A stretch of 64,000 bases of DNA, taken from the NCBI RefSeq assembly GCF_058153355.1, contig NZ_CM177019.1. One strand, 5' to 3'. Below, piece by piece: positions 2,303-60,909 of the stretch (its first letter is position 1; each line of letters starts with the position of its first letter). The position numbers and the translations under genes were made by a program. Below the pieces are notes generated by a model, which was given only the letters and a program-made list of their open reading frames with translations, had not been told where the DNA came from and did not search any database.

Positions 2303-2378
2303 TGGTGGCCCCTGCTGGACTTGAACCAGCGACCAAGCGATTATGAGTCGCCTGCTCTAACCACTGAGCTAAGGGGCC
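2303..2378 (-). tRNA. ileX: tRNA with CAU anticodon, likely tRNA-Ile2 (lysidine-modified); elongator tRNA-Met not excluded
   Basis: Reverse complement reads GGCCCCTTAGCTCAGTGGTTAGAGCAGGCGACTCATAATCGCTTGGTCGCTGGTTCAAGTCCAGCAGGGGCCACCA: cloverleaf, CAT anticodon, encoded CCA. Position between yqjH and mug matches K-12 ileX. Confidence 0.85.
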
Positions 2379-3028: not shown

Positions 3029-4454
3029 TAATGCCGATCAGTTAAGGATCAGTTGACCGATCCAGTGGCTGTGTAAGAATCCGGAAACGCTCACTTGTTT
3101 CCGGATTTTTTTATGCACATTGGACAGGCTCTTGATCTGGTATCCCGTTACGATTCTCTGCGTAACCCACTGACTTCTCTGGGGGATTACCTCGACCCCG
3201 AACTCATCTCTCGTTGCCTTGCCGAATCAGGTACTGTAACGCTACGCAAGCGCCGTCTTCCCCTCGAAATGATGGTCTGGTGTATTGTTGGCATGGCGCT
3301 TGAGCGTAAAGAACCTCTTCACCAGATTGTGAATCGCCTGGACATCATGCTGCCGGGCAATCGCCCCTTCGTTGCCCCCAGTGCCGTTATTCAGGCCCGC
3401 CAGCGCCTGGGAAGTGAGGCTGTCCGCCGCGTGTTCACGAAAACAGCGCAGCTCTGGCATAACGCCACGCCGCATCCGCACTGGTGCGGCCTGACCCTGC
3501 TGGCCATCGATGGTGTGTTCTGGCGCACACCGGATACACCAGAGAACGATGCAGCCTTCCCCCGCCAGACACATGCCGGGAACCCGGCGCTCTACCCGCA
3601 GGTCAAAATGGTCTGCCAGATGGAACTGACCAGCCATCTGCTGACGGCTGCAGCCTTCGGCACGATGAAGAACAGCGAAAATGAGCTTGCTGAGCAACTT
3701 ATAGAACAAACCGGCGATAACACTCTGACGTTAATGGATAAAGGTTATTACTCACTGGGACTGTTAAATGCCTGGAGCCTGGCGGGAGAACACCGCCACT
3801 GGATGATACCTCTCAGAAAGGGAGCGCAATATGAAGAGATCAGAAAACTGGGTAAAGGCGATCATCTGGTGAAGCTGAAAACCAGCCCGCAGGCACGAAA
3901 AAAGTGGCCGGGACTGGGAAATGAAGTGACAGCCCGCCTGCTGACCGTGACGCGCAAAGGAAAAGTCTGCCATCTGCTGACGTCGATGACGGACGCCATG
4001 CGCTTCCCCGGAGGAGAAATGGCGGATCTGTACAGTCATCGCTGGGAAATCGAACTGGGATACAGGGAGATAAAACAGACGATGCAACTGAGCAGGCTGA
4101 CGCTGAGAAGTAAAAAGCCGGAGCTTGTGGAGCAAGAGCTGTGGGGTGTCTTACTGGCTTATAATCTGGTGAGATATCAGATGATTAAAATGGCGGAACA
4201 TCTGAAAGGTTACTGGCCGAATCAACTGAGTTTCTCAGAATCATGCGGAATGGTGATGAGAATGCTGATGACATTGCAGGGCGCTTCACCGGGACGTATA
4301 CCGGAGCTGATGCGCGATCTTGCAAGTATGGGACAACTTGTGAAATTACCGACAAGAAGGGAAAGGGCCTTCCCGAGAGTGGTAAAGGAGAGGCCCTGGA
4401 AATACCCCACAGCCCCGAAAAAGAGCCAGTCAGTTGCTTAACTGACTGGCATTA
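3029..4454 (+). mobile_element. IS4 insertion sequence, 1426 bp, complete
   Basis: 18-bp imperfect terminal inverted repeats TAATGCCGATCAGTTAAG (3029-3046) and CTTAACTGACTGGCATTA (4437-4454); single transposase ORF; 13-bp direct repeats at both ends; length matches IS4. Confidence 0.9.
3113..4441 (+). CDS. insG: IS4 transposase (DDE family)
   Basis: ORF 3095-4441; start at [16 protein letters not shown] gives 442 aa. Recognised as the IS4 transposase. Confidence 0.85.
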
Positions 4455-22560: not shown

Positions 22561-23994
22561 ATGAAAGTAACGCTGCCAGAGTTTGAACGTGCAGGAGTGA
22601 TGGTGGTTGGTGATGTGATGCTGGATCGTTACTGGTACGGTCCCACCAGCCGTATCTCGCCGGAAGCGCCGGTGCCCGTGGTTAAAGTGAATACCATCGA
22701 AGAACGTCCGGGCGGCGCGGCTAACGTGGCGATGAATATCGCTTCTCTCGGTGCTAATGCACGCCTGGTCGGGTTGACGGGCATTGACGATGCGGCGCGC
22801 GCGCTGAGTAAATCTCTGGCCGACGTCAACGTCAAATGCGACTTCGTTTCTGTACCGACGCATCCGACCATCACCAAATTACGGGTACTTTCCCGCAACC
22901 AACAGCTGATCCGTCTGGATTTTGAAGAAGGTTTCGAAGGGGTTGATCCGCAGCCGCTGCACGAGCGGATTAATCAGGCGCTGAGTTCGATTGGCGCGCT
23001 GGTGCTCTCTGACTACGCGAAAGGTGCGCTGGCAAGCGTGCAGCAGATGATCCAACTGGCGCGTAAAGCGGGCGTTCCGGTGCTGATTGATCCAAAAGGC
23101 ACCGATTTTGAGCGCTACCGCGGCGCTACGCTGTTAACGCCGAATCTCTCGGAGTTTGAAGCGGTTGTCGGTAAATGCAAGACCGAAGAAGAGATTGTTG
23201 AGCGCGGCATGAAACTGATTGCCGATTACGAACTTTCGGCTCTGTTAGTGACCCGTTCCGAACAAGGGATGACCCTGCTGCAACCGGGTAAAGCGCCGCT
23301 GCATATGCCAACCCAGGCGCAGGAAGTGTATGACGTTACCGGTGCGGGCGACACGGTGATTGGTGTGCTGGCGGCAACGCTGGCTGCGGGTAATTCGCTG
23401 GAAGAAGCCTGCTTCTTTGCCAATGCGGCGGCAGGCGTGGTGGTCGGCAAACTGGGGACATCCACGGTTTCGCCGATCGAGCTGGAAAATGCAGTACGTG
23501 GACGTGCAGATACCGGCTTTGGTGTGATGACCGAAGAGGAACTGAAGCTTGCTGTAGCGGCGGCGCGTAAACGCGGTGAAAAAGTGGTGATGACCAACGG
23601 CGTCTTTGACATTCTCCACGCCGGGCACGTCTCCTATCTGGCAAATGCCCGCAAACTGGGTGACCGCCTGATTGTCGCTGTGAACAGCGATGCCTCCACC
23701 AAACGGCTGAAAGGGGATTCCCGCCCCGTTAACCCTCTCGAACAGCGTATGATTGTGCTGGGGGCACTGGAAGCGGTCGACTGGGTGGTGTCGTTTGAAG
23801 AAGACACGCCGCAGCGCTTGATTGCCGGGATCTTGCCAGACCTGCTGGTGAAAGGCGGCGACTATAAACCAGAAGAGATTGCCGGGAGTAAAGAAGTCTG
23901 GGCCAATGGTGGCGAAGTGCTGGTGCTCAACTTTGAAGACGGTTGCTCAACGACCAACATCATCAAGAAGATCCAACAGGATAAAAAAGGCTAA
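22561..23994 (+). CDS. hldE: Bifunctional D-glycero-beta-D-manno-heptose-7-phosphate kinase / heptose-1-phosphate adenylyltransferase
   Basis: 477 aa; N-terminal PfkB-like kinase and C-terminal cytidylyltransferase-like domain. Confidence 0.93.
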
Positions 23995-24412
23995 CCGGAA
24001 AGCGGTTCACAGATCTCGCTTCGAACCAGGCAGGCCTATTGACGCTGTTGTTTTTTCAACCTAAAGTAAAGGAACAAGGGTAAGGGAGGATTTCTCCCCC
24101 CTCTGAATTGGTTGTTAGTAAGTCGGGAAACTTAACAGTAACAACACAATCAGTATGATGACGAACTTCATCATAACCCTTTCCTTATACAAGGCCCCTT
24201 CCTCGGGAGGGGCTTTCCCGTTTCAGCCCCTTGCTGACTCCCCGATTGTTGATGAGCGCCAGACCCCGCGCAATGCTTTCTCTTATGCAGTTTTCTCTTC
24301 CCCGAGTCGGCTCGCAAAACGCTGTAACAACCTGATCATTTGTACTTTTTAGCGGAACACAGATATAAAAAATCCCCGACTTTTTGGGCCAGGGATGTTC
24401 ATGGTTGAAAAT

Positions 24413-26074
24413 TTATTCTATGTTTTCTGCTACGGGAGTTGTTGAGGTTAAGGGTGAAGTCAATGCCGCTAGCGAGCCGCCTGAAACACCAATTTCATTG
24501 AGCAAGGAGTCAATCAGCGGTGCCTGTGTGCGGTAAGAAAGCGCGGCTGATAACGCTTGTTCCGCCAGATTTCCTCCACCAACGCTACCTGATATTGCAT
24601 CCCCTGCGGTACCACCACGGTTCAGACCATCGACCTGAATAATCTTAATACCGTCGATAGACTTCATTGGTTCCACAGATTTCTCAATTACTGCAGGGAG
24701 CGCCTGCAACAATGCCAGTTTGAATTTAAGGCTGGTTTGCTCGTCAGAAAGTACGTTGATAGCATCGTTCAGCGCACGTTGCGCTTCTGCTTCCGCCAGG
24801 CCTTTTTTACGCGTAGCTTCGGCTAACTCAACGATCGCCGCCGCCTGCATCTCTGCGGCTTCTTTTTCTGCTTTCGCCCGCACGGTCAGTTCAACCGCTT
24901 TGGTTTCTGCATCCTGCGCGGCAGCGATTAGGGCAACTTGTTTAGCACGATCGGCTTCTGCGGTCTGGCGAGTGGTTTCTACGTTTTGCTGGGCGCTTAC
25001 CGCTTCTGCAAGTGCAAGGTTGGCACGCGCTTCCGCTTGTGACTGCTGTTCCGATTTGGCGGCAATAGCGATCGATTTCGTCTGGTTGGCGATTTCGGTG
25101 ACCTGCTGCTGTTCGATCTCTTTAATGCGAACTTCACGTTCAGCTTCAACTTTTCTGGAACGGACGGCCTGTTCGCGGTCGATTTCCGTTTCCTGAATCT
25201 GTCGTTCAGCCAGAATTCGCGTCTGCTCTGCTTCCCGACGACGCTCGGCCTCAAAAGCCGCAATTTTCGCATTCTGCTCAGCGGTACGGGTTTTAACCTG
25301 CTGCTCCTGCTCAAGCGTCATAAACGCTTCTTGCTGTTCAATCTCCAGCTTCCGCGAAAGCTCATCACGGTTTTTCTCACGCACCGCAACTTCTACATCC
25401 TGTTCAACTTCGTTACGTTCGCGACGACGGCGCTCCGTCTCCTGCGTCAGCTTGGTTAAACCTTCGGCGTCAAAGGCGTTGTTAGGATTGAAATGTTCTT
25501 TCGACGTCTGGTTAAAGTTGGTAAGTGAAACGCTTTCCAGTTCCAGGCCGTTTTTCGACAGATCTTCAGCAACGGTATTTTGTACGCCCTGCACGAAGTT
25601 CTCGCGGGTATCCTGTAACTCATGCATGGTCATTTGTGCAGCTGTTGCACGGAGGGCATCGACAAATTTATCTTCAACCAACATACGTAAGTCTTCAGGC
25701 GACAGGGTGCGTTGCCCCAGCGTCTGGGCGGCGGTGGCAATACCTTCCACTGACGGTTTTACCCGCACAAAGAAAGCGACAACGACATCGACGCGCATAC
25801 GATCTTTCGTAATCAGGCTATCAATGGTTGAGCGGCTGACTTCCAGCTTCAGAGTATTCATATTGATGGGGATTATTTCATGAAAGATCGGCATCACGAT
25901 TGCGCCACCGCTCATTACCACTTTTTGCCCACCTAAACCAGTACGAACAAAAGCTTGCTCTGCCGAAGCGCGACGATAGAGCCTGGCGAAAATAATTCCA
26001 ATAATAAACAGAATGCATACGGCAATAATTGCGGTAAACATCCAGGAGGGCACAGAATTAACAATATCATCCAT
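24413..26074 (-). CDS. yqiK: Flotillin-like SPFH/band-7 membrane protein
   Basis: 553 aa; N-terminal transmembrane helix, SPFH core, long charged coiled-coil stretch. Confidence 0.85.
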   Translation of the reverse strand: MDDIVNSVPSWMFTAIIAVCILFIIGIIFARLYRRASAEQAFVRTGLGGQKVVMSGGAIVMPIFHEIIPINMNTLKLEVSRSTIDSLITKDRMRVDVVVAFFVRVKPSVEGIATAAQTLGQRTLSPEDLRMLVEDKFVDALRATAAQMTMHELQDTRENFVQGVQNTVAEDLSKNGLELESVSLTNFNQTSKEHFNPNNAFDAEGLTKLTQETERRRRERNEVEQDVEVAVREKNRDELSRKLEIEQQEAFMTLEQEQQVKTRTAEQNAKIAAFEAERRREAEQTRILAERQIQETEIDREQAVRSRKVEAEREVRIKEIEQQQVTEIANQTKSIAIAAKSEQQSQAEARANLALAEAVSAQQNVETTRQTAEADRAKQVALIAAAQDAETKAVELTVRAKAEKEAAEMQAAAIVELAEATRKKGLAEAEAQRALNDAINVLSDEQTSLKFKLALLQALPAVIEKSVEPMKSIDGIKIIQVDGLNRGGTAGDAISGSVGGGNLAEQALSAALSYRTQAPLIDSLLNEIGVSGGSLAALTSPLTSTTPVAENIE

Positions 26075-27655: not shown

Positions 27656-27810
27656 GCTTATTCTCAGGGCGGGGCGAAATTCCCCACCGGCGGTAAATCA
27701 ACTCAGTTGAAAGCCCGCGAGCGCTTTGGGTGCGAACTCAAAGGACAGCAGATCCGGTGTAATTCCGGGGCCGACGGTTAGAGTCCGGATGGGAGAGAGT
27801 AACGATTCTG
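27656..27810 (+). ncRNA. FMN riboswitch (RFN element) in the ribB leader; expression platform continues towards 27900
   Basis: Conserved RFN core segments TTCTCAGGGCGGGGCGAAATTCCCCACCGGCGGTAAA ... AGCCCGCGAGCGC ... GATCCGGTGTAATTCCGGGGCCGACGGTTAGAGTCCGGATGGGAGAGAGTAACG directly upstream of ribB. Confidence 0.85.
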
Positions 27811-38932: not shown

Positions 38933-38934
38933 GA

Positions 38935-41076
38935 TCAAAATTCCATTTTCACCGTGAATTGCACTTCACGAGGATCGCCAATCTGGTTGCCCAGATTATT
39001 TGTGGCGATGGAAGAGGTGTAATACGTTTTATCAAACAGGTTTTTGACGTTTAATTGCAGTGTGACCGGATACTGCAATTTCATTTTGTATGCGGCGAAG
39101 GCATCGGCAACAAAATAGCCTGGCAGATAATAGTCAGCCCCATTGGTTGCCGAACGACGGCTTACACCATGTCCACCACCGCCAAACGTCAGTGTGTTAT
39201 TGCCTGGCATGTTATGAATATCATAGGTCAGGAATAGCGAACCGGTATGACGAGGAACATTCGGCAATGGTTTCCCTGCATAATCAGGATCCTCCAGAAC
39301 CTTAGCATCGGTATAGCCGTAGCTGGCAATGATATTAATGTTTTCAGTTAATGCTCCCGCAAGGTCGACTTCTACCCCTCTTGAACGAACACGGCCTGCC
39401 GTTTTGGCAATGGTTTCATCACCAACACTTTCGGTATACAACACATTACGTTTATGGATATCAAACAGCGCAATATCTGCGGTGATACCATCGAATAGCT
39501 CGAATTTTGCCCCGACTTCGTAAGCATTAGATGATTCTGGTGGCAGATCGCCAATGTAGCTGGCAATTGACGATTGCGGCATAAATGTTTGCGAATAATT
39601 GGCAAATAAGGATACCGATGGCGTCAGTTTGTAGACCAATCCCAGTTTGGGAGTCCATTGTTCATCGCGGCTGTCAGTATTGACATTAAAAGGACGGCCT
39701 TTACCCGCATACTGCGTGTAATACTGATAGCGGAGCCCGGCGACGGCAATCCAGTTATCGGTCAGATAGAGTGCGTCCTGTGCATACGCTGAGTAGCTCT
39801 CCTGTTTGATCGTCTGATCACTGTCCGACGCCGAAACCGTTGTGCATTTGCTGGTAATACCATAAACGGGGTTGTAGATATTGAAATCTTTAGCTTTTTT
39901 ACAGCGAATCATATCTGTGCGCAGAAGATCATAATATTCATATGACACCCCACCCAGAATCTCATTATAGAATCCAGCAACATCAACATTCCCTTGCAGA
40001 TCCGCACGAGTAGCATGCATACGCTGGGTAGATCCTTGAGTTGCATCAACACGCCGTGTCAGCGTTCCTGTCGTTGCATCATACGCGGTAACGCGAGCTT
40101 GATTATCGCTGTATTTATCCTGGCTGTAGCTGTAATCAAAGCGCGCTGTCCACTGGCTATTGAGATGATATTCTGCGTTGAGTTGCGCCAGATCGGACTG
40201 ACCATCTGTAATATTAAACGGTTCGTCAAAACGTATTTTTCGATCAACGTTTACGGGCTGTTTCGTCGTAAGGTCGAAAATCGTTCCACGATCGAACGGC
40301 GTTTTATAATCCCGATGAGAATAGAGCATGGTTACTGTTGCATTATCACCAAACCAGGTGAGTGATGGAGCAATAAATGTACTGCGCTCTTTACCGAAGT
40401 TTCGCCAGTAATCTTCATCTTGCACTTCCCCAATAAGGCGATACGCCAGCTGAGTGCCTTCAATGGGACCTGTGATATCCAATTGCCCAGTGCCTCCGCC
40501 AAAACTGGAGGAAGTGGCTGAGACAGTACCATGGAATGTTTTTTCCGGGCGCTTTGTCACGACGTTAATCAGTCCGCCAGGATCGAGAATGCCATACAGC
40601 GTGGAGGCCGGACCTTTTAGCACTTCCACACGCTCTGTGGCGGCGTTGAAACTGCGAGGAAGTACAGTTCGCAGGCCGTTGGTCATGATGGAGCCATCCC
40701 GGTTAGCACCAAACCCACGACGTACAAAAGCATCCTGAGTCCCGCCTAATGTATTGGTCTGTACCACGTTACTGACGTTATAAAGTGCCTCATCCAGCGT
40801 CGTCGCATTCTGATTTTCCAGAACTTGATCGCTAACCGTATTGACCACCTGCGGGATATCCAGCATCGGCATATCGGTTAATGTCGCCGTGGAGGTGCTC
40901 AGAGGTTGATAACCATCGGTCGCCTCAGTTGCGGTATTTGCATCCGCTGTAACAGTGATTGTTTCGCCATCTTTGGTCGTTACAGTGTCGGTTGCATGAA
41001 TCATCGGTGCTGCAAAGAGCAGTGAAAAGAGCGCTCGACCTTTGAGTCCTGAGAATGAAGGTGTGAACATAGCCAT
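38935..41076 (-). CDS. TonB-dependent outer-membrane receptor, siderophore type
   Basis: 713 aa; N-terminal signal peptide, TonB-box-like ETITVTA, plug-domain motifs, beta-barrel with C-terminal aromatic residue (...VKMEF). Confidence 0.85.
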   Translation of the reverse strand: MAMFTPSFSGLKGRALFSLLFAAPMIHATDTVTTKDGETITVTADANTATEATDGYQPLSTSTATLTDMPMLDIPQVVNTVSDQVLENQNATTLDEALYNVSNVVQTNTLGGTQDAFVRRGFGANRDGSIMTNGLRTVLPRSFNAATERVEVLKGPASTLYGILDPGGLINVVTKRPEKTFHGTVSATSSSFGGGTGQLDITGPIEGTQLAYRLIGEVQDEDYWRNFGKERSTFIAPSLTWFGDNATVTMLYSHRDYKTPFDRGTIFDLTTKQPVNVDRKIRFDEPFNITDGQSDLAQLNAEYHLNSQWTARFDYSYSQDKYSDNQARVTAYDATTGTLTRRVDATQGSTQRMHATRADLQGNVDVAGFYNEILGGVSYEYYDLLRTDMIRCKKAKDFNIYNPVYGITSKCTTVSASDSDQTIKQESYSAYAQDALYLTDNWIAVAGLRYQYYTQYAGKGRPFNVNTDSRDEQWTPKLGLVYKLTPSVSLFANYSQTFMPQSSIASYIGDLPPESSNAYEVGAKFELFDGITADIALFDIHKRNVLYTESVGDETIAKTAGRVRSRGVEVDLAGALTENINIIASYGYTDAKVLEDPDYAGKPLPNVPRHTGSLFLTYDIHNMPGNNTLTFGGGGHGVSRRSATNGADYYLPGYFVADAFAAYKMKLQYPVTLQLNVKNLFDKTYYTSSIATNNLGNQIGDPREVQFTVKMEF

Positions 41077-41176
41077 TTAGTCTGTTATCCCAAAAACTCG
41101 CGGATTGTCGCGAGTGAAAATTGTTTCTTATTGCTCACTAAGCACTATCCGTTTGTTATTTCGCCATCGGATATGT

Positions 41177-41195
41177 AATTGAGAATCATTCAATC
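41177..41195. promoter_or_regulatory. Candidate Fur box in the divergent control region of the island
   Basis: AATTGAGAATCATTCAATC; the core TGAGAATCATTCA matches the Fur consensus TGATAATCATTAT at 11 of 13 positions. Lies in a 373-bp AT-rich region between the receptor gene and the ABC operon. Confidence 0.45.
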
Positions 41196-41449
41196 ACGCG
41201 GTAATGTAGTAGTAAATGAGAAATAACAAAAAATTGCTACATGTGTTTTTATGAAAGGTTTATACAATTTAATTGTTTTTAATTTATTGATATTTAATGT
41301 TTTTATTTGTATGTGCAAAAATATTTTACCTGTTATTTACCTTGTTTTTGTGTGGCTTTTAACTGCTTGACTACTACATTTTGTGGCGTCAAACTCTCAA
41401 AGGAGAATGAGTTTTATTTTTGTTTGTCTTTGATTAAGTTGGCGTACAC

Positions 41450-42259
41450 GTGGCACATAACGCAAAAGGGCAGGGGCTGATCCTCGACAATGTTTCTGCC
41501 GGGTATCACAAGAAAATCATTGTTGATGGTGTTTCTTTCTCCGTTCCCACAGAAAAAATGACCGTTCTGGTTGGGGCAAACGGCTGTGGAAAGTCGACGC
41601 TGCTCAGCACCATTGCTCGTATCTTGCAACCCATGGGCGGTTCGATATTGCTTGATGGCAACGCGATTCACGAGCAACCAACGAAAGCGTTATCCCGTAG
41701 ACTTGGGATCTTGCCGCAGTCGCCATTATTGCCGGAGGGCTTAACCGTTTATGAACTGGTGTCGCGTGGGCGTTTTCCCTGGCAGAATTTCATTCGTCAA
41801 TGGAGCGATGCCGATGAGCTGGCGGTAGAAGAGGCCCTGAAATTAACGGGTACGCAGGAGTTTGCACATTTACCTGTTGAAAAACTCTCTGGTGGGCAGC
41901 GCCAGCGTTGCTGGATTGCGATGGTGTTGGCGCAAAAGACGCCTTATATCCTGCTGGATGAACCCACAACATGGCTTGATTTACGTTATCAGGTTGAAAT
42001 TCTTGAGTTATTACATGATTTAACGCGTCATCACGGGCGTACAGTCGTCGTGGTGTTGCATGATCTGAATTTTGCCGTCAATTATGGCGATACGTTGATA
42101 TTTTTACGCCAGGGGAAAGTGGTGCGTGTGTTGAATGAGGGGGAGCATTGCACGCCTGAGCTGGTAAAAGCGGTCTTTGACGTTGATGTTCACGCATCAA
42201 TAAATCCTCTGACGGGAAAGCCGTTCTTCATGCCGTTTCGTGGTGTAGAAAAAGTATGA
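41450..42259 (+). CDS. ABC transporter ATP-binding protein, FepC/FhuC/FecE-like
   Basis: 269 aa; Walker A GANGCGKST, signature LSGGQRQR, Walker B ILLDEPT, H-loop; apparent GTG start. Confidence 0.85.
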   Translation: MAHNAKGQGLILDNVSAGYHKKIIVDGVSFSVPTEKMTVLVGANGCGKSTLLSTIARILQPMGGSILLDGNAIHEQPTKALSRRLGILPQSPLLPEGLTVYELVSRGRFPWQNFIRQWSDADELAVEEALKLTGTQEFAHLPVEKLSGGQRQRCWIAMVLAQKTPYILLDEPTTWLDLRYQVEILELLHDLTRHHGRTVVVVLHDLNFAVNYGDTLIFLRQGKVVRVLNEGEHCTPELVKAVFDVDVHASINPLTGKPFFMPFRGVEKV

Positions 42260-43239
42260 TGCGCACAGGGCTGGTTACTGTAATTTTCCTCGCCTTACTG
42301 CTGGTGGGATGCGTGGTATATCCAGGGATTGGTGCCCGATTTATTGCACCACAAACGGTGTTGCAGGCATTTCTTCATTTTGATCCGCAAAACTTCGATC
42401 ACAACGTAATTGTAAGACTCCGTTTGCCGCGTTTAGCGGCAGCATTGCTTACCGGTGCTTCTCTTGGTGTTGCTGGTGCTTTGTTGCAGGCTGTCATTCG
42501 TAACCCATTGGGGGAGCCACATATTTTAGGCTTAAATGCCGGAGCCGCTCTTGCTGTCGTTGCCGCCAGTGCGCTTGGACTGGCCTTTCCGATTGGACGC
42601 CCACTGCTGGCATCTACGGGGGGCGCGTTATTGTTCCTGTTGATATTGCTGCTTTCCTCCGCAGGGCGTTCAGGGTTAACGCCAATGAAAGTTACTTTAT
42701 GCGGCGTGGCGCTATCGGCGTTCGTGTCCTCAATAACGGCTGCAATCCTGATTCTTGACGAACAAACACTGCTGGCGATGCGGACATGGCTAGCAGGTGA
42801 TTTAGCGGGGCAGGATTGGGCGACGCTGGGTACGTCCGCCTGGTTTTCTCTGGGGGGATTTGTGTTAGCCCTTTACCTTGCACCCTCCCTTAACATGTTG
42901 GCACTGGGCGATCGCATGGCGCAGGGGCTGGGCGTCTCTGTATTCCGCACGCGAACATTCACCCTGCTTGCGATCGCGTTGCTCTGTGGCGCAGCCGTAT
43001 CGATTGCTGGCCCCATTGGTTTTGTCGGCCTGCTAGTACCGCAGATTGTCCGGCGTCTGGTATCAGCGGATCTGTGCGTTCTGCTCCCTCTTTCAGCTTG
43101 TGTCGGCGCACTTTTGTTATTACTGGCAGATATTATTGCCCGTACGCTTTTCACGCCCCATGAGTTAGCGACCGGTGTCATGACGGCGTTAGTTGGTGCG
43201 CCTGTTTTTGTCATTATGGCGACGAGGATGTTCAAATGA
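42256..43239 (+). CDS. ABC transporter permease, FecCD family (iron-siderophore/B12 type)
   Basis: 327-aa polytopic membrane protein; start overlaps the ATPase stop (ATGA). Confidence 0.85.
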   Translation: MMRTGLVTVIFLALLLVGCVVYPGIGARFIAPQTVLQAFLHFDPQNFDHNVIVRLRLPRLAAALLTGASLGVAGALLQAVIRNPLGEPHILGLNAGAALAVVAASALGLAFPIGRPLLASTGGALLFLLILLLSSAGRSGLTPMKVTLCGVALSAFVSSITAAILILDEQTLLAMRTWLAGDLAGQDWATLGTSAWFSLGGFVLALYLAPSLNMLALGDRMAQGLGVSVFRTRTFTLLAIALLCGAAVSIAGPIGFVGLLVPQIVRRLVSADLCVLLPLSACVGALLLLLADIIARTLFTPHELATGVMTALVGAPVFVIMATRMFK

Positions 43240-44285
43240 GTCGGATAATGAACGTCGGGCTACGCCCACTACGTGTTGGTAAGTTTTCGACACTGGTACG
43301 CCCTAAAAATCTGCTGTTGCTTGGTGGGCTGTTCCTGCTTGCGGTTGGAATACTGATATTCGGTCTGATGCAGGGTTCTTTCTCTGTTCCGGCATCGGAA
43401 GTAGGACGAGCGTTGTTTGCTCCAGAAAACGTAAGCACAGACGCACGTTATATTGTGCAGGATATTCGCTTGCCGAGAGTCATCATGGCATTGCTATGCG
43501 GGGCCATGTTAGGTATGGCAGGGGCCGCAATGCAATCCATTGCACGTAACGGCCTTGCCGATCCTGGTTTAATCGGCGTCAAAGAAGGATGTAGCGTGGC
43601 TGTGCTGTGGCTGATTTTCCAGTTTCCAATGCTGGGAATGTTCTGGCGTCCAGTGGCTGGTCTTGCTGGCGGCCTGTTGGTGGCTTTAATCGTGATTTTT
43701 TGTGCGCGCGATATTTCCCGCCCGCGATTTGTTCTGATTGGTATTGGTGTTTCCTGGTTTTTCGCCGCCGGTATCGGTGTATTTATGACCACTGCAGATG
43801 TTCGAGATGTACAAACTGCATTGATGTGGTTATCGGGAAGCCTGCATGCAGCTAACTGGATGTTAGTCGGTATTTCAGCCTGTTGGATGTTGCCAGCCGC
43901 TCTTTTATTGCTGTTCACCGCCAGGAAGGCGGATATCGCTCTGCTTGGTCATCAGGTGGCAACCGGGTTAGGCGTGAATAGTTCTCGCCTGGCGTTGTTA
44001 CGTGTCGCCGCACCCATAATCCTGACAGCCGTCTGCGTTTCGTGTGTTGGTAACATAGGTTTTGTCGGATTGATAGCACCCCATATATCACGTTTTATTC
44101 TACGTGGCGGGCAGACGACATTACTGCTGGGGAGCGCGGTATCGGGGGCGTTGTTAGTTATTCTGGCGGATAGCATTGGTCGTTTGGCTTTTTTGCCTTT
44201 GCAACTGCCTGCCGGAATCATTATCTCACTGATTGGTGGACCATTTTTTTTGCTACTGCTCTGGCAGCGCAGGAACAGTTTTTAA
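43236..44285 (+). CDS. ABC transporter permease, FecCD family, second subunit
   Basis: 349-aa polytopic membrane protein; start overlaps the upstream stop (ATGA). Confidence 0.85.
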   Translation: MSRIMNVGLRPLRVGKFSTLVRPKNLLLLGGLFLLAVGILIFGLMQGSFSVPASEVGRALFAPENVSTDARYIVQDIRLPRVIMALLCGAMLGMAGAAMQSIARNGLADPGLIGVKEGCSVAVLWLIFQFPMLGMFWRPVAGLAGGLLVALIVIFCARDISRPRFVLIGIGVSWFFAAGIGVFMTTADVRDVQTALMWLSGSLHAANWMLVGISACWMLPAALLLLFTARKADIALLGHQVATGLGVNSSRLALLRVAAPIILTAVCVSCVGNIGFVGLIAPHISRFILRGGQTTLLLGSAVSGALLVILADSIGRLAFLPLQLPAGIIISLIGGPFFLLLLWQRRNSF

Positions 44286-44295
44286 CGGGAGTTAT

Positions 44296-45243
44296 ATGCG
44301 TTTATTTTTTTCTCTGCTGATACTGTTGTCATTTTTTTCCCGTGCAACAGAACCTGTTCAGGTATTTACTGATGATTTAGGGCGCAAAGTCACTGTTCCT
44401 GCTCATCCAAAGAGAATTGTCTCTTTACACGATCTTGATATCACTATTCCTCTGATTGAGCTCGGTGTACCTCCTGTCGCCAGCCACGGGCGAACTCGGC
44501 CTGACGGTAGCCATTTCATTCGATCTGGCGCGTTATTGACAGGTGTCGACTTTGATAATTCATCGATCGCCTTTATTGGTACCGCTGATATTGATATTGA
44601 AGCGATTGTGGCGGCAAAGCCTGACCTGATCATCACAGAACCGACCCGTAATACGCCCATTGAACAACTTGAAAAAATTGCGCCCACGGTGAGCATTGAT
44701 CATCTCAAAGGGGGCGCGCCAGAAATCTATCGCAAGCTGGCAGAACTTACAGGAACGCAGTCGCAGCTGGCGATACTTGAACGCCGCTATCAGGCACAAA
44801 TCAATGCGCTGAAGGCGACGCTGGACAGCCAAAAAATAACGGTATCGGTGATTCAGGCAAACCAGGGAAAAATTAATGTGATGCATAGCTATCATTCGCT
44901 GGGGCGGGTATTACGCGATGCTGGTTTTCGTTTTCCGCCGCTGATTGAGAGCATTCCTGAAGGTGGGCGAATGGATGTGAGCGCGGAGCGTTTACCTGAA
45001 CTGGATGCCGATTTTGTTTTTGCAACCTGGCGCGGTGACACCGGTGGTAAACCTCAGGATGAGCTGGCAGCAATGGAAAAAGTCATGCCGGGATGGTGTC
45101 AGTTTCTGACTGCCTGTCGTTCCGGGCGTTATGTGCTGATTTCTCGTGAAGAGGCAATTTCTAACTCCTTTGCATCTCTGGGGCTGATGGCTGCGCAGAT
45201 ACAATCACAAATTGCAGGGCGACCTCTACCGGAGGCTAAATGA
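44296..45243 (+). CDS. Periplasmic substrate-binding protein, class III (siderophore/heme/B12-type)
   Basis: 315 aa from MRLFFSLLILLSFFSRATEP (signal peptide); typical size and architecture; GGGA ribosome-binding site upstream of the ATG at 44296. Confidence 0.8.
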   Translation: MRLFFSLLILLSFFSRATEPVQVFTDDLGRKVTVPAHPKRIVSLHDLDITIPLIELGVPPVASHGRTRPDGSHFIRSGALLTGVDFDNSSIAFIGTADIDIEAIVAAKPDLIITEPTRNTPIEQLEKIAPTVSIDHLKGGAPEIYRKLAELTGTQSQLAILERRYQAQINALKATLDSQKITVSVIQANQGKINVMHSYHSLGRVLRDAGFRFPPLIESIPEGGRMDVSAERLPELDADFVFATWRGDTGGKPQDELAAMEKVMPGWCQFLTACRSGRYVLISREEAISNSFASLGLMAAQIQSQIAGRPLPEAK

Positions 45244-60805: not shown

Positions 60806-60909
60806 ACGTTCCTCCTTTATATGAACTCACCGGAGCTGGCTCCGGTGAGGTGTTGTGAACTTAAGTCTGGACGAAATGCCCGAAAACGAAAGTTTGAGGC
60901 GTAAAAAGC

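What the first reader, a model, noticed from the sequence alone, without database searches (positions are those of the whole stretch)
23995..24412. Long 418-bp convergent gap between hldE and yqiK with pyrimidine-rich stem-loops
Most convergent gene pairs in this window are separated by 30-100 bp. This interval is 418 bp, with no convincing ORF, and contains several C/T-rich stem-loop candidates (for example CCCCTTCCTCGGGAGGGG at 24196-24213 followed by CTTTCCCGTTT). It could hold a long 3' UTR, an sRNA or decayed repeat-element remnants.
Basis: seen in the sequence. Interest (0 to 1): 0.3.

Follow-up and report, generated by a model that had tools for sequence, protein, structure and literature searches.

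The report
Known Sib/Ibs toxin-antitoxin locus
The long gap between hldE and yqiK holds one copy of the well-known Sib/Ibs module: a 19-residue membrane toxin gene and, on the opposite strand, the small RNA that silences it, so the finding is real but ordinary.

Summary
The 418-bp convergent gap (23995-24412) is real and is an outlier: the other convergent gaps in this window are 12-80 bp. It is already explained. It holds one complete Sib/Ibs type I toxin-antitoxin unit, the locus that carries sibE/ibsE and sibD/ibsD in E. coli K-12.

- **Sib RNA:** Rfam SIB_RNA (RF00113) matches 24039-24189 (+) at 144.7 bits against a gathering score of 56. Homology to the MG1655 annotation places the Sib antitoxin RNA at 24074-24218.
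CCCCTTCCTCGGGAGGGG lies at 24195-24212 (one base off) and is the core of the Sib terminator hairpin, 24191-24216.
- **Missed ORF:** a 19-codon ORF on the minus strand (24174->24115, MMKFVIILIVLLLLSFPTY) matches Pfam Ibs_toxin at 42.2 bits (cutoff 27).
- **Rest of the gap:** it carries the inferred ibs promoter, one unexplained conserved motif and the yqiK terminator (24372-24396).
- **Copy number:** K-12 and about 72% of complete E. coli genomes carry two tandem 375-bp units here. This window, like about 28%, carries one.
- **Conservation:** in 76 copies from about ten enterobacterial genera, 88% of predicted pairs form, with compensatory changes.

Toxicity, repression and transcript ends are inferred by homology and were not measured. 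Novelty: already known. Interest: low.

The parts
22561..23994 (+). hldE (left flank, converging gene)
   Evidence: 477-aa ORF. Annotated as hldE at the same coordinates in the collinear EC42405 record.
24039..24067 (+). Sib promoter: -35 TTGACG (24039-24044), 17-bp spacer, -10 TAAAGT (24062-24067)
   Evidence: Promoter scan, 9 of 12 matches. Covered by positions 1-30 of the Rfam model. Nearly invariant across genera. It corresponds to the 35-bp minimal sibD promoter with +1A described in PMC12956327.
24074..24218 (+). Sib antitoxin RNA, 145 nt, SibE-type
   Evidence: RF00113 at 144.7 bits, E = 5e-30. The ends are transferred from the MG1655 sibE annotation (144 nt); the window RNA starts ACAAGGG and ends GGGGCTTTCC as SibE does. 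MFE -55.9 kcal/mol, z = -5.0. 88.3% of pair cells are paired in 76 homologues, against 36-59% for slid controls.
24121..24143 (+). Counterpart of target-recognition domain 1 (TRD1, SibC nt 46-68)
   Evidence: Mapped by pairwise alignment to SibC, using the definition in PMC2943612. The sequence is identical to K-12 SibE over this stretch.
24174..24192 (+). Counterpart of target-recognition domain 2 (TRD2, SibC nt 99-115), complementary to the ibs Shine-Dalgarno region and start codon
   Evidence: Mapping, definition. Identical to K-12 SibE here.
24191..24216 (+).
   Evidence: Fold at -19.4 kcal/mol, z = -3.7. 7 of 11 pairs show compensatory changes. U-G/G-U wobbles at column pair 152/159 in 69 of 76 copies pair only on the + strand RNA. 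The MG1655 SibE 3' end maps to 24218.
24115..24174 (-). ibs toxin ORF, 19 codons plus stop: MMKFVIILIVLLLLSFPTY
   Evidence: ORF list and translation. Pfam PF13956 Ibs_toxin at 42.2 bits (cutoff 27), full-length match. Annotated as an Ibs family toxin, WP_071821827.1, at the same place in EC42405. Differs from K-12 IbsE at two residues (L4F, V9I). Identical to the hldE-proximal copy of E. albertii.
24074..24239 (-). ibs mRNA (inferred extent, about 165 nt; 5' end about 24236-24239)
   Evidence: Inferred from PMC2943612: ibsC/ibsD mRNAs are 159/163 nt, with an 18-nt 5' overhang beyond the Sib 3' end. Fold z = -4.6. Not measured here.
24082..24103 (-). Hairpin that would end the ibs mRNA (the complement of Sib helix P2)
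   Evidence: Fold at -15.4 kcal/mol, though z is only -1.0. The helix covaries: 5 of 7 pairs have changes on both sides. Its role as the ibs terminator is inferred.
24245..24273 (-). Inferred ibs promoter: -35 TTGCGC (24273->24268), 17-bp spacer, -10 AACAAT (24250->24245)
   Evidence: Read from the sequence. Each hexamer matches 4 of 6, below the scan's threshold. GATTGTT and the TTG of the -35 are conserved across Escherichia, Citrobacter, Kluyvera and Phytobacter. The position fits the mapped ibsC/ibsD start sites.
24313..24319 (.). Conserved CGCAAAA motif of unknown role, about 75-81 nt upstream of the inferred ibs start
   Evidence: Invariant in the nine-genome alignment, where its surroundings diverge. 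It lies 69-71 nt (70 in nearly all) from the GATTGTT element in hldE-linked copies and is absent at that position in sibA/B/C-type loci.
24362..24396 (-). yqiK intrinsic terminator (stem-loop 24396->24372, then TTTTTTATAT)
   Evidence: Terminator scan: 9 pairs, 5 of them G-C. Fold. Highly conserved across genera. It is fully paired only on the minus strand, where a T-G wobble would be a C-A mismatch on the + strand. It is part of the 375-bp unit duplicated in K-12.
24413..26074 (-). yqiK (right flank, converging gene)
   Evidence: 553-aa ORF. Annotated as the flotillin family protein YqiK in EC42405.

Best explanation
The gap holds one complete Sib/Ibs type I toxin-antitoxin module.

On the minus strand, a weak promoter (about 24245-24273) would drive an ibs mRNA of about 165 nt. 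Its only ORF (24174->24115) encodes a 19-residue, very hydrophobic peptide. In E. coli K-12 this peptide depolarises the inner membrane and stops growth when overproduced.

On the plus strand, a strong sigma-70 promoter (24039-24067) drives the 145-nt Sib RNA (24074-24218). Sib is thought to be made constitutively. It first contacts ibs mRNA through two recognition domains, here 24121-24143 (within the ORF) and 24174-24192 (ribosome-binding site and start codon). The duplex then spreads, blocking translation and making the mRNA a substrate for RNase III.

The rest of the gap is the region upstream of ibs plus the yqiK terminator.

Shown here: the sequence, structure, ORF, family membership, synteny and conservation. 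Inferred from K-12 work: transcript ends, expression, toxicity and repression.
For: - **Rfam:** RF00113 SIB_RNA matches full length at 144.7 bits against a gathering score of 56, E = 5e-30.
- **Pfam:** Ibs_toxin matches the antisense ORF at 42.2 bits against a cutoff of 27, covering the full 19-position profile.
- **Annotation:** the same ORF is annotated as an Ibs family toxin in EC42405, and ibsE/ibsD are annotated at the hldE-yqiK locus of K-12. MG1655 carries the ncRNAs sibE and sibD there.
- **Similarity to SibE:** the window RNA differs from K-12 SibE by 5 substitutions and 1 inserted base. It is identical to SibE in both recognition domains.
- **Promoter:** TTGACG, 17 bp, TAAAGT, with A at +1 (PMC12956327).
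- **Fold:** z = -5.0 for Sib.
- **Conservation of structure:** in 76 copies from about ten genera, 88.3% of pair cells are paired, against 36-59% for slid controls. There are 139 cells with compensatory changes, against 17-56 for the controls.
- **Conservation of the ORF:** an 18-19-codon ORF is intact in 71 of 75 distinct homologous copies.
- **Synteny:** hldE-sib/ibs-yqiK is found in Citrobacter, Kluyvera and Phytobacter.
- **Mechanism:** taken from PMC2943612 and PMC9426594.
Against: Nothing in the sequence contradicts this reading. The limits are as follows.

- No expression data exist for this strain.
- The ibs promoter hexamers are weak (4 of 6 each) and were not picked up by the consensus scan.
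- The U-tract after the Sib terminator is poor (CUUUCC), and the terminator scan did not call it.
- NCBIfam returned no family for the 25-aa query.
- Toxicity of this particular peptide variant (F4, I9) is untested.
Confidence: 0.95

Rival explanations
1. The gap is mainly a long 3' untranslated region of hldE. Transcription from glnE-hldE runs on through the Sib sequence and ends at the 24191-24216 hairpin, and the structures serve hldE mRNA stability.
For: No intrinsic terminator is predicted on the + strand between the hldE stop (23994) and the Sib promoter. The 23985-24040 stretch has no significant structure (z = -1.5). The Sib terminator would therefore be the first strong hairpin that hldE read-through meets.
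Against: The region has its own strong, conserved promoter and matches an independently transcribed sRNA family end to end. The same Sib unit occurs at loci unrelated to hldE: sibA/B next to yegL/mdtA and sibC between fau and serA. The structure therefore belongs to Sib, not to hldE. Read-through could coexist with the sRNA but would not replace it.
Confidence: 0.2
2. The gap is a decayed remnant of repeat elements: a dead Sib repeat, or what was left when a two-copy array collapsed, with no current function.
For: The locus is copy-number polymorphic. The K-12 two-copy junction is present in 3930 of 5426 complete genomes. Against the K-12 copies, the window unit looks mosaic: SibE-like up to 24231 and SibD-like from 24237.
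Against: The unit is intact. It has a full-length Rfam match, an uninterrupted 19-codon ORF, both promoters and both terminators. It aligns end to end with other single-copy loci, with no extra fragment. Single-copy hldE-sib-yqiK loci also occur in other genera. Against the two E. albertii copies the window is not mosaic: 30 of 34 informative sites are of the hldE-proximal type.
Confidence: 0.03
3. A different, undescribed element sits in the right-hand 170 bp (24237-24396), which the sibA/B/C loci do not share. It could be a second small RNA or a small protein.
For: Similarity to the sibA/B/C units stops at about 24236, while the sibD/E-type unit continues to 24396. A CGCAAAA motif at 24313-24319 is invariant across genera.
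Against: There is no Rfam match, even at E <= 1. No promoter or terminator is predicted inside this stretch other than the yqiK terminator. The 65-codon + strand ORF 24155-24352 is broken by single-base indels in both K-12 units. Apart from the ibs promoter elements, the motif and the terminator, the stretch diverges freely between genera and is partly deleted in Citrobacter.
Confidence: 0.05

Closest known systems
SibE/IbsE of E. coli K-12 (b4611/b4666), the hldE-proximal copy at the same locus
   Same: Same position next to hldE. Same architecture: the toxin ORF lies wholly inside the antisense RNA. The promoter is the same apart from one base in the -10 hexamer (TAAAGT here, as in K-12 sibD; TAGAGT in K-12 sibE), and +1 is A. 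Both recognition domains are identical.
   Different: 5 substitutions and 1 extra base in the RNA. Two peptide changes (L4F, V9I). A CUCG terminator loop instead of UUCG. No second (sibD/ibsD) unit follows. The sequence downstream of 24237 resembles the K-12 sibD unit more than the sibE unit.
SibD/IbsD of E. coli K-12 (b4447/b4664), the yqiK-proximal copy
   Same: Same family and the same 375-bp unit type, including the ibs upstream region and the terminator next to yqiK. 91.6% identity over 359 bp.
   Different: The recognition-domain sequences differ (24118-24136 and 24187-24190 are SibE-type in the window). The peptide C-terminus is SFAAY rather than SFPTY.
SibA, SibB, SibC / IbsA, IbsB, IbsC of E. 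coli K-12
   Same: Same RNA family and peptide family. The core of about 200 bp (24038-24236) is 75-82% identical.
   Different: They sit at other chromosomal sites. They lack the right-hand 170 bp, the CGCAAAA motif and the yqiK-type terminator. SibA and SibB start with G rather than A (PMC12956327).
Other chromosomal type I toxin-antitoxin systems (Ldr/Rdl, Hok/Sok, TisB/IstR-1, ShoB/OhsC)
   Same: A small hydrophobic membrane toxin whose mRNA is silenced by a small antisense RNA (PMC2943612).
   Different: In Sib/Ibs the antitoxin covers the entire functional mRNA. There is no sequence relationship to the other systems, and none of them matched here in Rfam.

Membership tests
Sib/Ibs type I toxin-antitoxin (Rfam RF00113, Pfam PF13956) | RNA matches the SIB_RNA covariance model above the gathering score | tested here: met
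   144.7 bits against 56, model positions 1-147 of 147, E = 5e-30.
Sib/Ibs type I toxin-antitoxin (Rfam RF00113, Pfam PF13956) | An 18-19-codon hydrophobic ORF on the opposite strand, wholly inside the Sib transcript | tested here: met
   ORF 24174->24115 lies inside Sib 24074-24218. The peptide is MMKFVIILIVLLLLSFPTY. Pfam Ibs_toxin scores 42.2 bits against a cutoff of 27.
Sib/Ibs type I toxin-antitoxin (Rfam RF00113, Pfam PF13956) | Own sigma-70 promoter and intrinsic terminator giving an RNA of about 140 nt | tested here: met
   Sequence level only. Promoter matches 9 of 12. Terminator hairpin z = -3.7. Ends transferred from the MG1655 annotation give 145 nt.
Sib/Ibs type I toxin-antitoxin (Rfam RF00113, Pfam PF13956) | Conserved secondary structure supported by covariation | tested here: met
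   88.3% of cells are paired, against 36-59% for slid controls. 17 pairs have changes on both sides. 0 of 500 shuffles reach the observed covariation score. Caveat: the structure tested was derived from the window sequence itself.
Sib/Ibs type I toxin-antitoxin (Rfam RF00113, Pfam PF13956) | ibs promoter with a start site about 18 nt beyond the Sib 3' end | tested here: inconclusive
   TTGCGC, 17 bp, AACAAT sits at the expected place and its key bases are conserved across genera. The hexamers are weak and the consensus scan missed them. No start site has been mapped in this strain.
Sib/Ibs type I toxin-antitoxin (Rfam RF00113, Pfam PF13956) | Orthologous position (hldE-yqiK gap, the sibD/sibE locus) | tested here: met
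Sib/Ibs type I toxin-antitoxin (Rfam RF00113, Pfam PF13956) | The peptide is toxic (membrane depolarisation) and the cognate Sib represses it | not testable with these tools
   Known for the K-12 pairs (PMC2943612; PMC9426594). Inferred here from identity of the recognition domains with SibE.
Decayed second Sib unit / repeat remnant | Partial or disrupted copy of the 375-bp unit in addition to the intact one | tested here: not met
   Only one Rfam match on the sense strand. No direct or inverted repeats in 23900-24500. The gap aligns end to end with single-copy loci and is 376 bp, one repeat unit (spacing 375-377 bp), shorter than the K-12 gap.
hldE 3' UTR | hldE transcripts extend into the gap | not testable with these tools
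   Only indirect evidence: no + strand terminator is predicted between 23995 and 24038.

The most novel reading that the evidence does not exclude
The hldE-linked Sib/Ibs lineage carries extra regulatory wiring that has not been described. The invariant CGCAAAA motif, about 75-81 nt upstream of the ibs start, is kept at a fixed 70-nt spacing from the -10 element across Escherichia, Citrobacter, Kluyvera, Phytobacter and Salmonella arizonae. It could be a binding site for a regulator that switches the toxin on. Separately, hldE read-through transcripts that carry the whole Sib sequence could act as extra antitoxin, which would tie control of the toxin to synthesis of the LPS heptose.
Probability: 0.12. 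Interest if true: 0.35.

Novelty: already known. Interest (0 to 1): 0.07.

Why it matters
It matters little beyond correct annotation. The module was characterised in E. coli K-12 from 2008 onwards, and the exact peptide is already a RefSeq protein. Three practical lessons follow.

- A long 'empty' convergent gap in an enterobacterial genome can hide a 19-codon toxin gene and its antisense RNA.
- ORF length filters will miss such a gene.
- This strain has a single copy at a locus where most E. coli have two. That matters when sib/ibs deletion phenotypes or cross-talk between copies are compared across strains.

Tried and rejected
- **NCBIfam scan of the 25-aa extended ORF:** no family found. 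Pfam did recognise it.
- **Primary Sib/Ibs paper (Fozo et al. 2008, PMC2597788):** not held, so the mechanism is cited through PMC2943612.
- **A paper that appeared to link sibE and hldE:** a false text match to an author named 'Sibert'.
- **RNAalifold on the MAFFT alignment:** it recovered only the outer stem, P2, the ATGATG/CATCAT hairpin and the terminator. It missed the long central helix because of gaps in the alignment. I therefore tested the window's own MFE structure by pair counting.
- **Single copy arose by crossover between a SibE and a SibD unit:** supported against K-12 (switch between 24231 and 24237, Fisher p = 1.3e-4). Not supported against the two E. albertii units (30 of 34 sites hldE-proximal type) or against Escherichia sp. 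E1V33. The history is left unresolved.
- **The 65-codon + strand ORF 24155-24352:** rejected. It overlaps the Sib terminator and the ibs promoter, and its frame is broken by indels in both K-12 units.
- **A second promoter upstream of ibs around TTGCGA (24316->24311):** considered from the sequence, but the -10 candidates are poor. Not claimed.

Full report
**Observation**

The hldE ORF ends at 23994, and the yqiK ORF on the opposite strand ends at 24413. The gap is therefore 23995-24412, 418 bp, as stated.

The window is collinear with E. coli strain EC42405 from 18349 onwards, at 98.4% identity. In that record's annotation the nine other convergent gene pairs in this stretch are 12-80 bp apart. 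The gap is a true outlier.

The quoted string CCCCTTCCTCGGGAGGGG lies at 24195-24212, one base to the left of the stated position, and is followed by CTTTCCCGTTT. It is the core of an 11-bp hairpin with a CUCG loop (24191-24216; -19.4 kcal/mol, z = -3.7, 0 of 200 shuffles fold as well).

**What it is**

A scan of the whole window against Rfam gives a full-length match to SIB_RNA (RF00113) at 24039-24189 on the + strand. The score is 144.7 bits against a gathering score of 56, with E = 5e-30. A permissive scan of the gap adds only a weak mirror match on the other strand.

On the minus strand the ORF list contains MYKERVMMKFVIILIVLLLLSFPTY (24192->24115). Its last 19 residues, starting at the ATG at 24174, match Pfam Ibs_toxin over the full profile at 42.2 bits against a cutoff of 27.

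The same 60-bp CDS is annotated as 'type I toxin-antitoxin system Ibs family toxin' (WP_071821827.1) in EC42405. In K-12 the hldE-yqiK gap carries ibsE and ibsD, together with the ncRNAs sibE and sibD.

**Anatomy, by transfer from the MG1655 annotation**

- **Ends of Sib.** In MG1655, SibE (144 nt) starts 40 nt beyond the ibsE stop and ends 44 nt upstream of the ibsE ATG. Allowing for one inserted base, this places the window's Sib RNA at 24074-24218, 145 nt. It begins ACAAGGG and ends GGGGCTTTCC, exactly as SibE does.
- **Sib promoter.** TTGACG (24039-24044), 17 bp, TAAAGT (24062-24067), found by the scan. This puts +1 at the A of 24074, 35 bp after the start of the -35 hexamer. That matches the 35-bp minimal sibD promoter with +1A in PMC12956327.
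It is the Sib terminator.
- **ibs mRNA.** K-12 ibs mRNAs are about 160 nt and overhang the Sib 3' end by 18 nt (PMC2943612). The ibs start would then be at about 24236-24239.
- **ibs promoter.** Just upstream on the minus strand sit AACAAT (24250->24245) and TTGCGC (24273->24268), 17 bp apart. This is a weak promoter that the scan did not call, but its key bases are conserved across genera.
- **Recognition domains.** TRD1 and TRD2, defined for SibC, map to 24121-24143 and 24174-24192. Both are identical to K-12 SibE, so by its specificity determinants the window's RNA is SibE-type.
- **Peptide.** It differs from IbsE at two positions (L4F, V9I). It is identical to the hldE-proximal copy of E. 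albertii.
- **yqiK terminator.** It lies at 24396->24372 and is followed by TTTTTTATAT. It is fully paired only as minus-strand RNA.

**Structure and conservation**

The Sib RNA folds at -55.9 kcal/mol, z = -5.0. The complementary ibs mRNA folds with z = -4.6.

A pattern scan of one genome per species found 68 stretches with the Sib core. They come from Escherichia, Citrobacter, Salmonella, Kluyvera, Pseudocitrobacter, Phytobacter, Hafnia, Chimaeribacter, Enterobacter and a Raoultella MAG. Of the 75 distinct copies, 71 keep an intact 18-19-codon ibs ORF.

On a MAFFT alignment of 76 copies I counted pairs for the window's own MFE structure.

| Measure | Observed | Control |
|---|---|---|
| Pair cells that are paired | 88.3% | 36-59% (partner slid by 1-3 columns) |
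| Cells with compensatory changes | 139 | 17-56 (slid controls) |
| Shuffles reaching the observed covariation score | 0 of 500 | - |

In the terminator helix, 7 of 11 pairs show compensatory changes. One pair is U-G or G-U in 69 of 76 copies. That pair forms only in the + strand RNA, which assigns the helix to Sib rather than to the ibs leader. One caveat applies: the structure tested came from one of the aligned sequences.

**The rest of the gap**

Similarity to the K-12 sibA, sibB and sibC units covers only 24038-24236. The sibD/sibE-type unit continues to about 24396.

I aligned nine single-copy hldE-sib-yqiK gaps from Escherichia, Citrobacter, Kluyvera, Phytobacter and an unnamed enterobacterium. 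The conserved blocks are:

- the Sib promoter and body;
- the terminator;
- AGCCCCTTGCTGAC around the ibs start;
- GATTGTT (the -10 element);
- the TTG of the -35 element;
- a CGCAAAA motif (24313-24319);
- the yqiK terminator.

The CGCAAAA motif lies 69-71 nt (70 in nearly all) from GATTGTT in hldE-linked copies, and no sibA/B/C-type locus has it at that position. I cannot explain it.

Everything else between 24280 and 24370 diverges, and part of it is deleted in Citrobacter. No + strand terminator is predicted between the hldE stop and the Sib promoter. hldE read-through into Sib is therefore possible but untested.

**Copy number**

K-12 has two tandem units spaced 375-377 bp apart, giving a 794-bp gap. 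E. albertii and Escherichia sp. E1V33 also have two.

The 76-bp junction between the K-12 units is present in 3930 of 5426 complete E. coli genomes. About 28% therefore lack it, as the window, EC42405 and E2348/69 do. Outside Escherichia, the syntenic loci that were recovered are single-copy.

Against the K-12 units the window looks mosaic: SibE-like to 24231 and SibD-like from 24237, p = 1.3e-4. Against the E. albertii units it is of the hldE-proximal type throughout. Whether the single copy is ancestral or a collapsed array stays open.

**How it most likely works**

This is inferred from K-12 work. Sib is made constitutively and pairs with the scarce ibs mRNA through TRD1 or TRD2. The duplex spreads over the ribosome-binding site and the ORF, translation is blocked, and the mRNA becomes an RNase III substrate.

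If the peptide is made, it depolarises the inner membrane. With +1A and the sibD-type -10 hexamer (TAAAGT), part of the RNA may carry a 5' NAD cap in stationary phase, as reported for SibC, SibD and SibE.

None of this was measured for this strain.

**Verdict**

Of the three interpretations offered, 'sRNA' is right, 'decayed remnants' is wrong and 'long 3' UTR' is open. The statement that there is no ORF is wrong. The element is an ordinary member of a family known since 2008. It is already annotated in the closest complete genome and is recognised by both Rfam and Pfam. Interest is low.

**Source of the window**

It is closest to E. coli EC42405: 98.2% over 2.5 kb around the locus, against 91-94% to K-12, E2348/69 and other Escherichia species representatives. 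The lineage is evidently divergent at this locus. I did not establish its taxonomic position.

Noticed in passing
window 3029-4454: An insertion of about 1.4 kb relative to EC42405, between mug and rpoD. It carries a 448-aa ORF (3095-4441, +) that matches Nterm_IS4 and DDE_Tnp_1. It looks like an IS4-family insertion sequence.
   Followed up: partly
window 18348/18349 (L075 16507-18348): EC42405 carries an ISEc41 (IS200/IS605, tnpA plus tnpB) between ygiM and ygiF. The window lacks it.
   Followed up: partly
window 24313-24319: The motif CGCAAAA is invariant across genera. It lies 69-71 nt (70 in nearly all) from the ibs -10 element in hldE-linked Sib/Ibs loci and is absent at that position in sibA/B/C-type loci. 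It may be a regulatory site; it is unexplained.
   Followed up: partly
window 23993-24007 (- strand): A weak terminator-like hairpin (AACCGCTTTCCGGTT followed by AGCCTTTTTT) overlaps the hldE stop codon on the opposite strand. It could stop ibs or yqiK read-through from running antisense into hldE.
   Followed up: no
window 27656-27804 (+): FMN riboswitch (RF00050, 120.9 bits) upstream of ribB.
   Followed up: no
window 60844-60907 (-): Match to the Rfam family ES173 sRNA (99 bits against a gathering score of 90), essentially identical to the consensus.
   Followed up: no
window 2303-2378 (-): A tRNA gene with anticodon CAT. ARAGORN calls it tRNA-Met, but EC42405 annotates it as tRNA-Ile, which suggests the lysidine-modified ileX type.
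   Followed up: no
window 38934-45242: A TonB-dependent siderophore receptor and a FecCD-type ABC transporter cluster next to parE. The 40000-44000 segment is found in only 1870 of 5426 complete E. coli genomes, so this is accessory DNA.
   Followed up: no
L009 583-1108; L044 4150-4675: E. albertii and Escherichia sp. E1V33 also carry two tandem Sib/Ibs units between hldE and yqiK. The two-copy state is therefore not specific to E. coli. The copies show different mosaic relationships to the window unit, which suggests gene conversion between them.
   Followed up: partly
L027, L034, L038, L060: Four Sib copies in Citrobacter and unnamed Enterobacteriaceae have an ibs ORF that has lost its stop codon or is otherwise altered. 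These may be decaying toxin genes with the RNA core retained.
   Followed up: no
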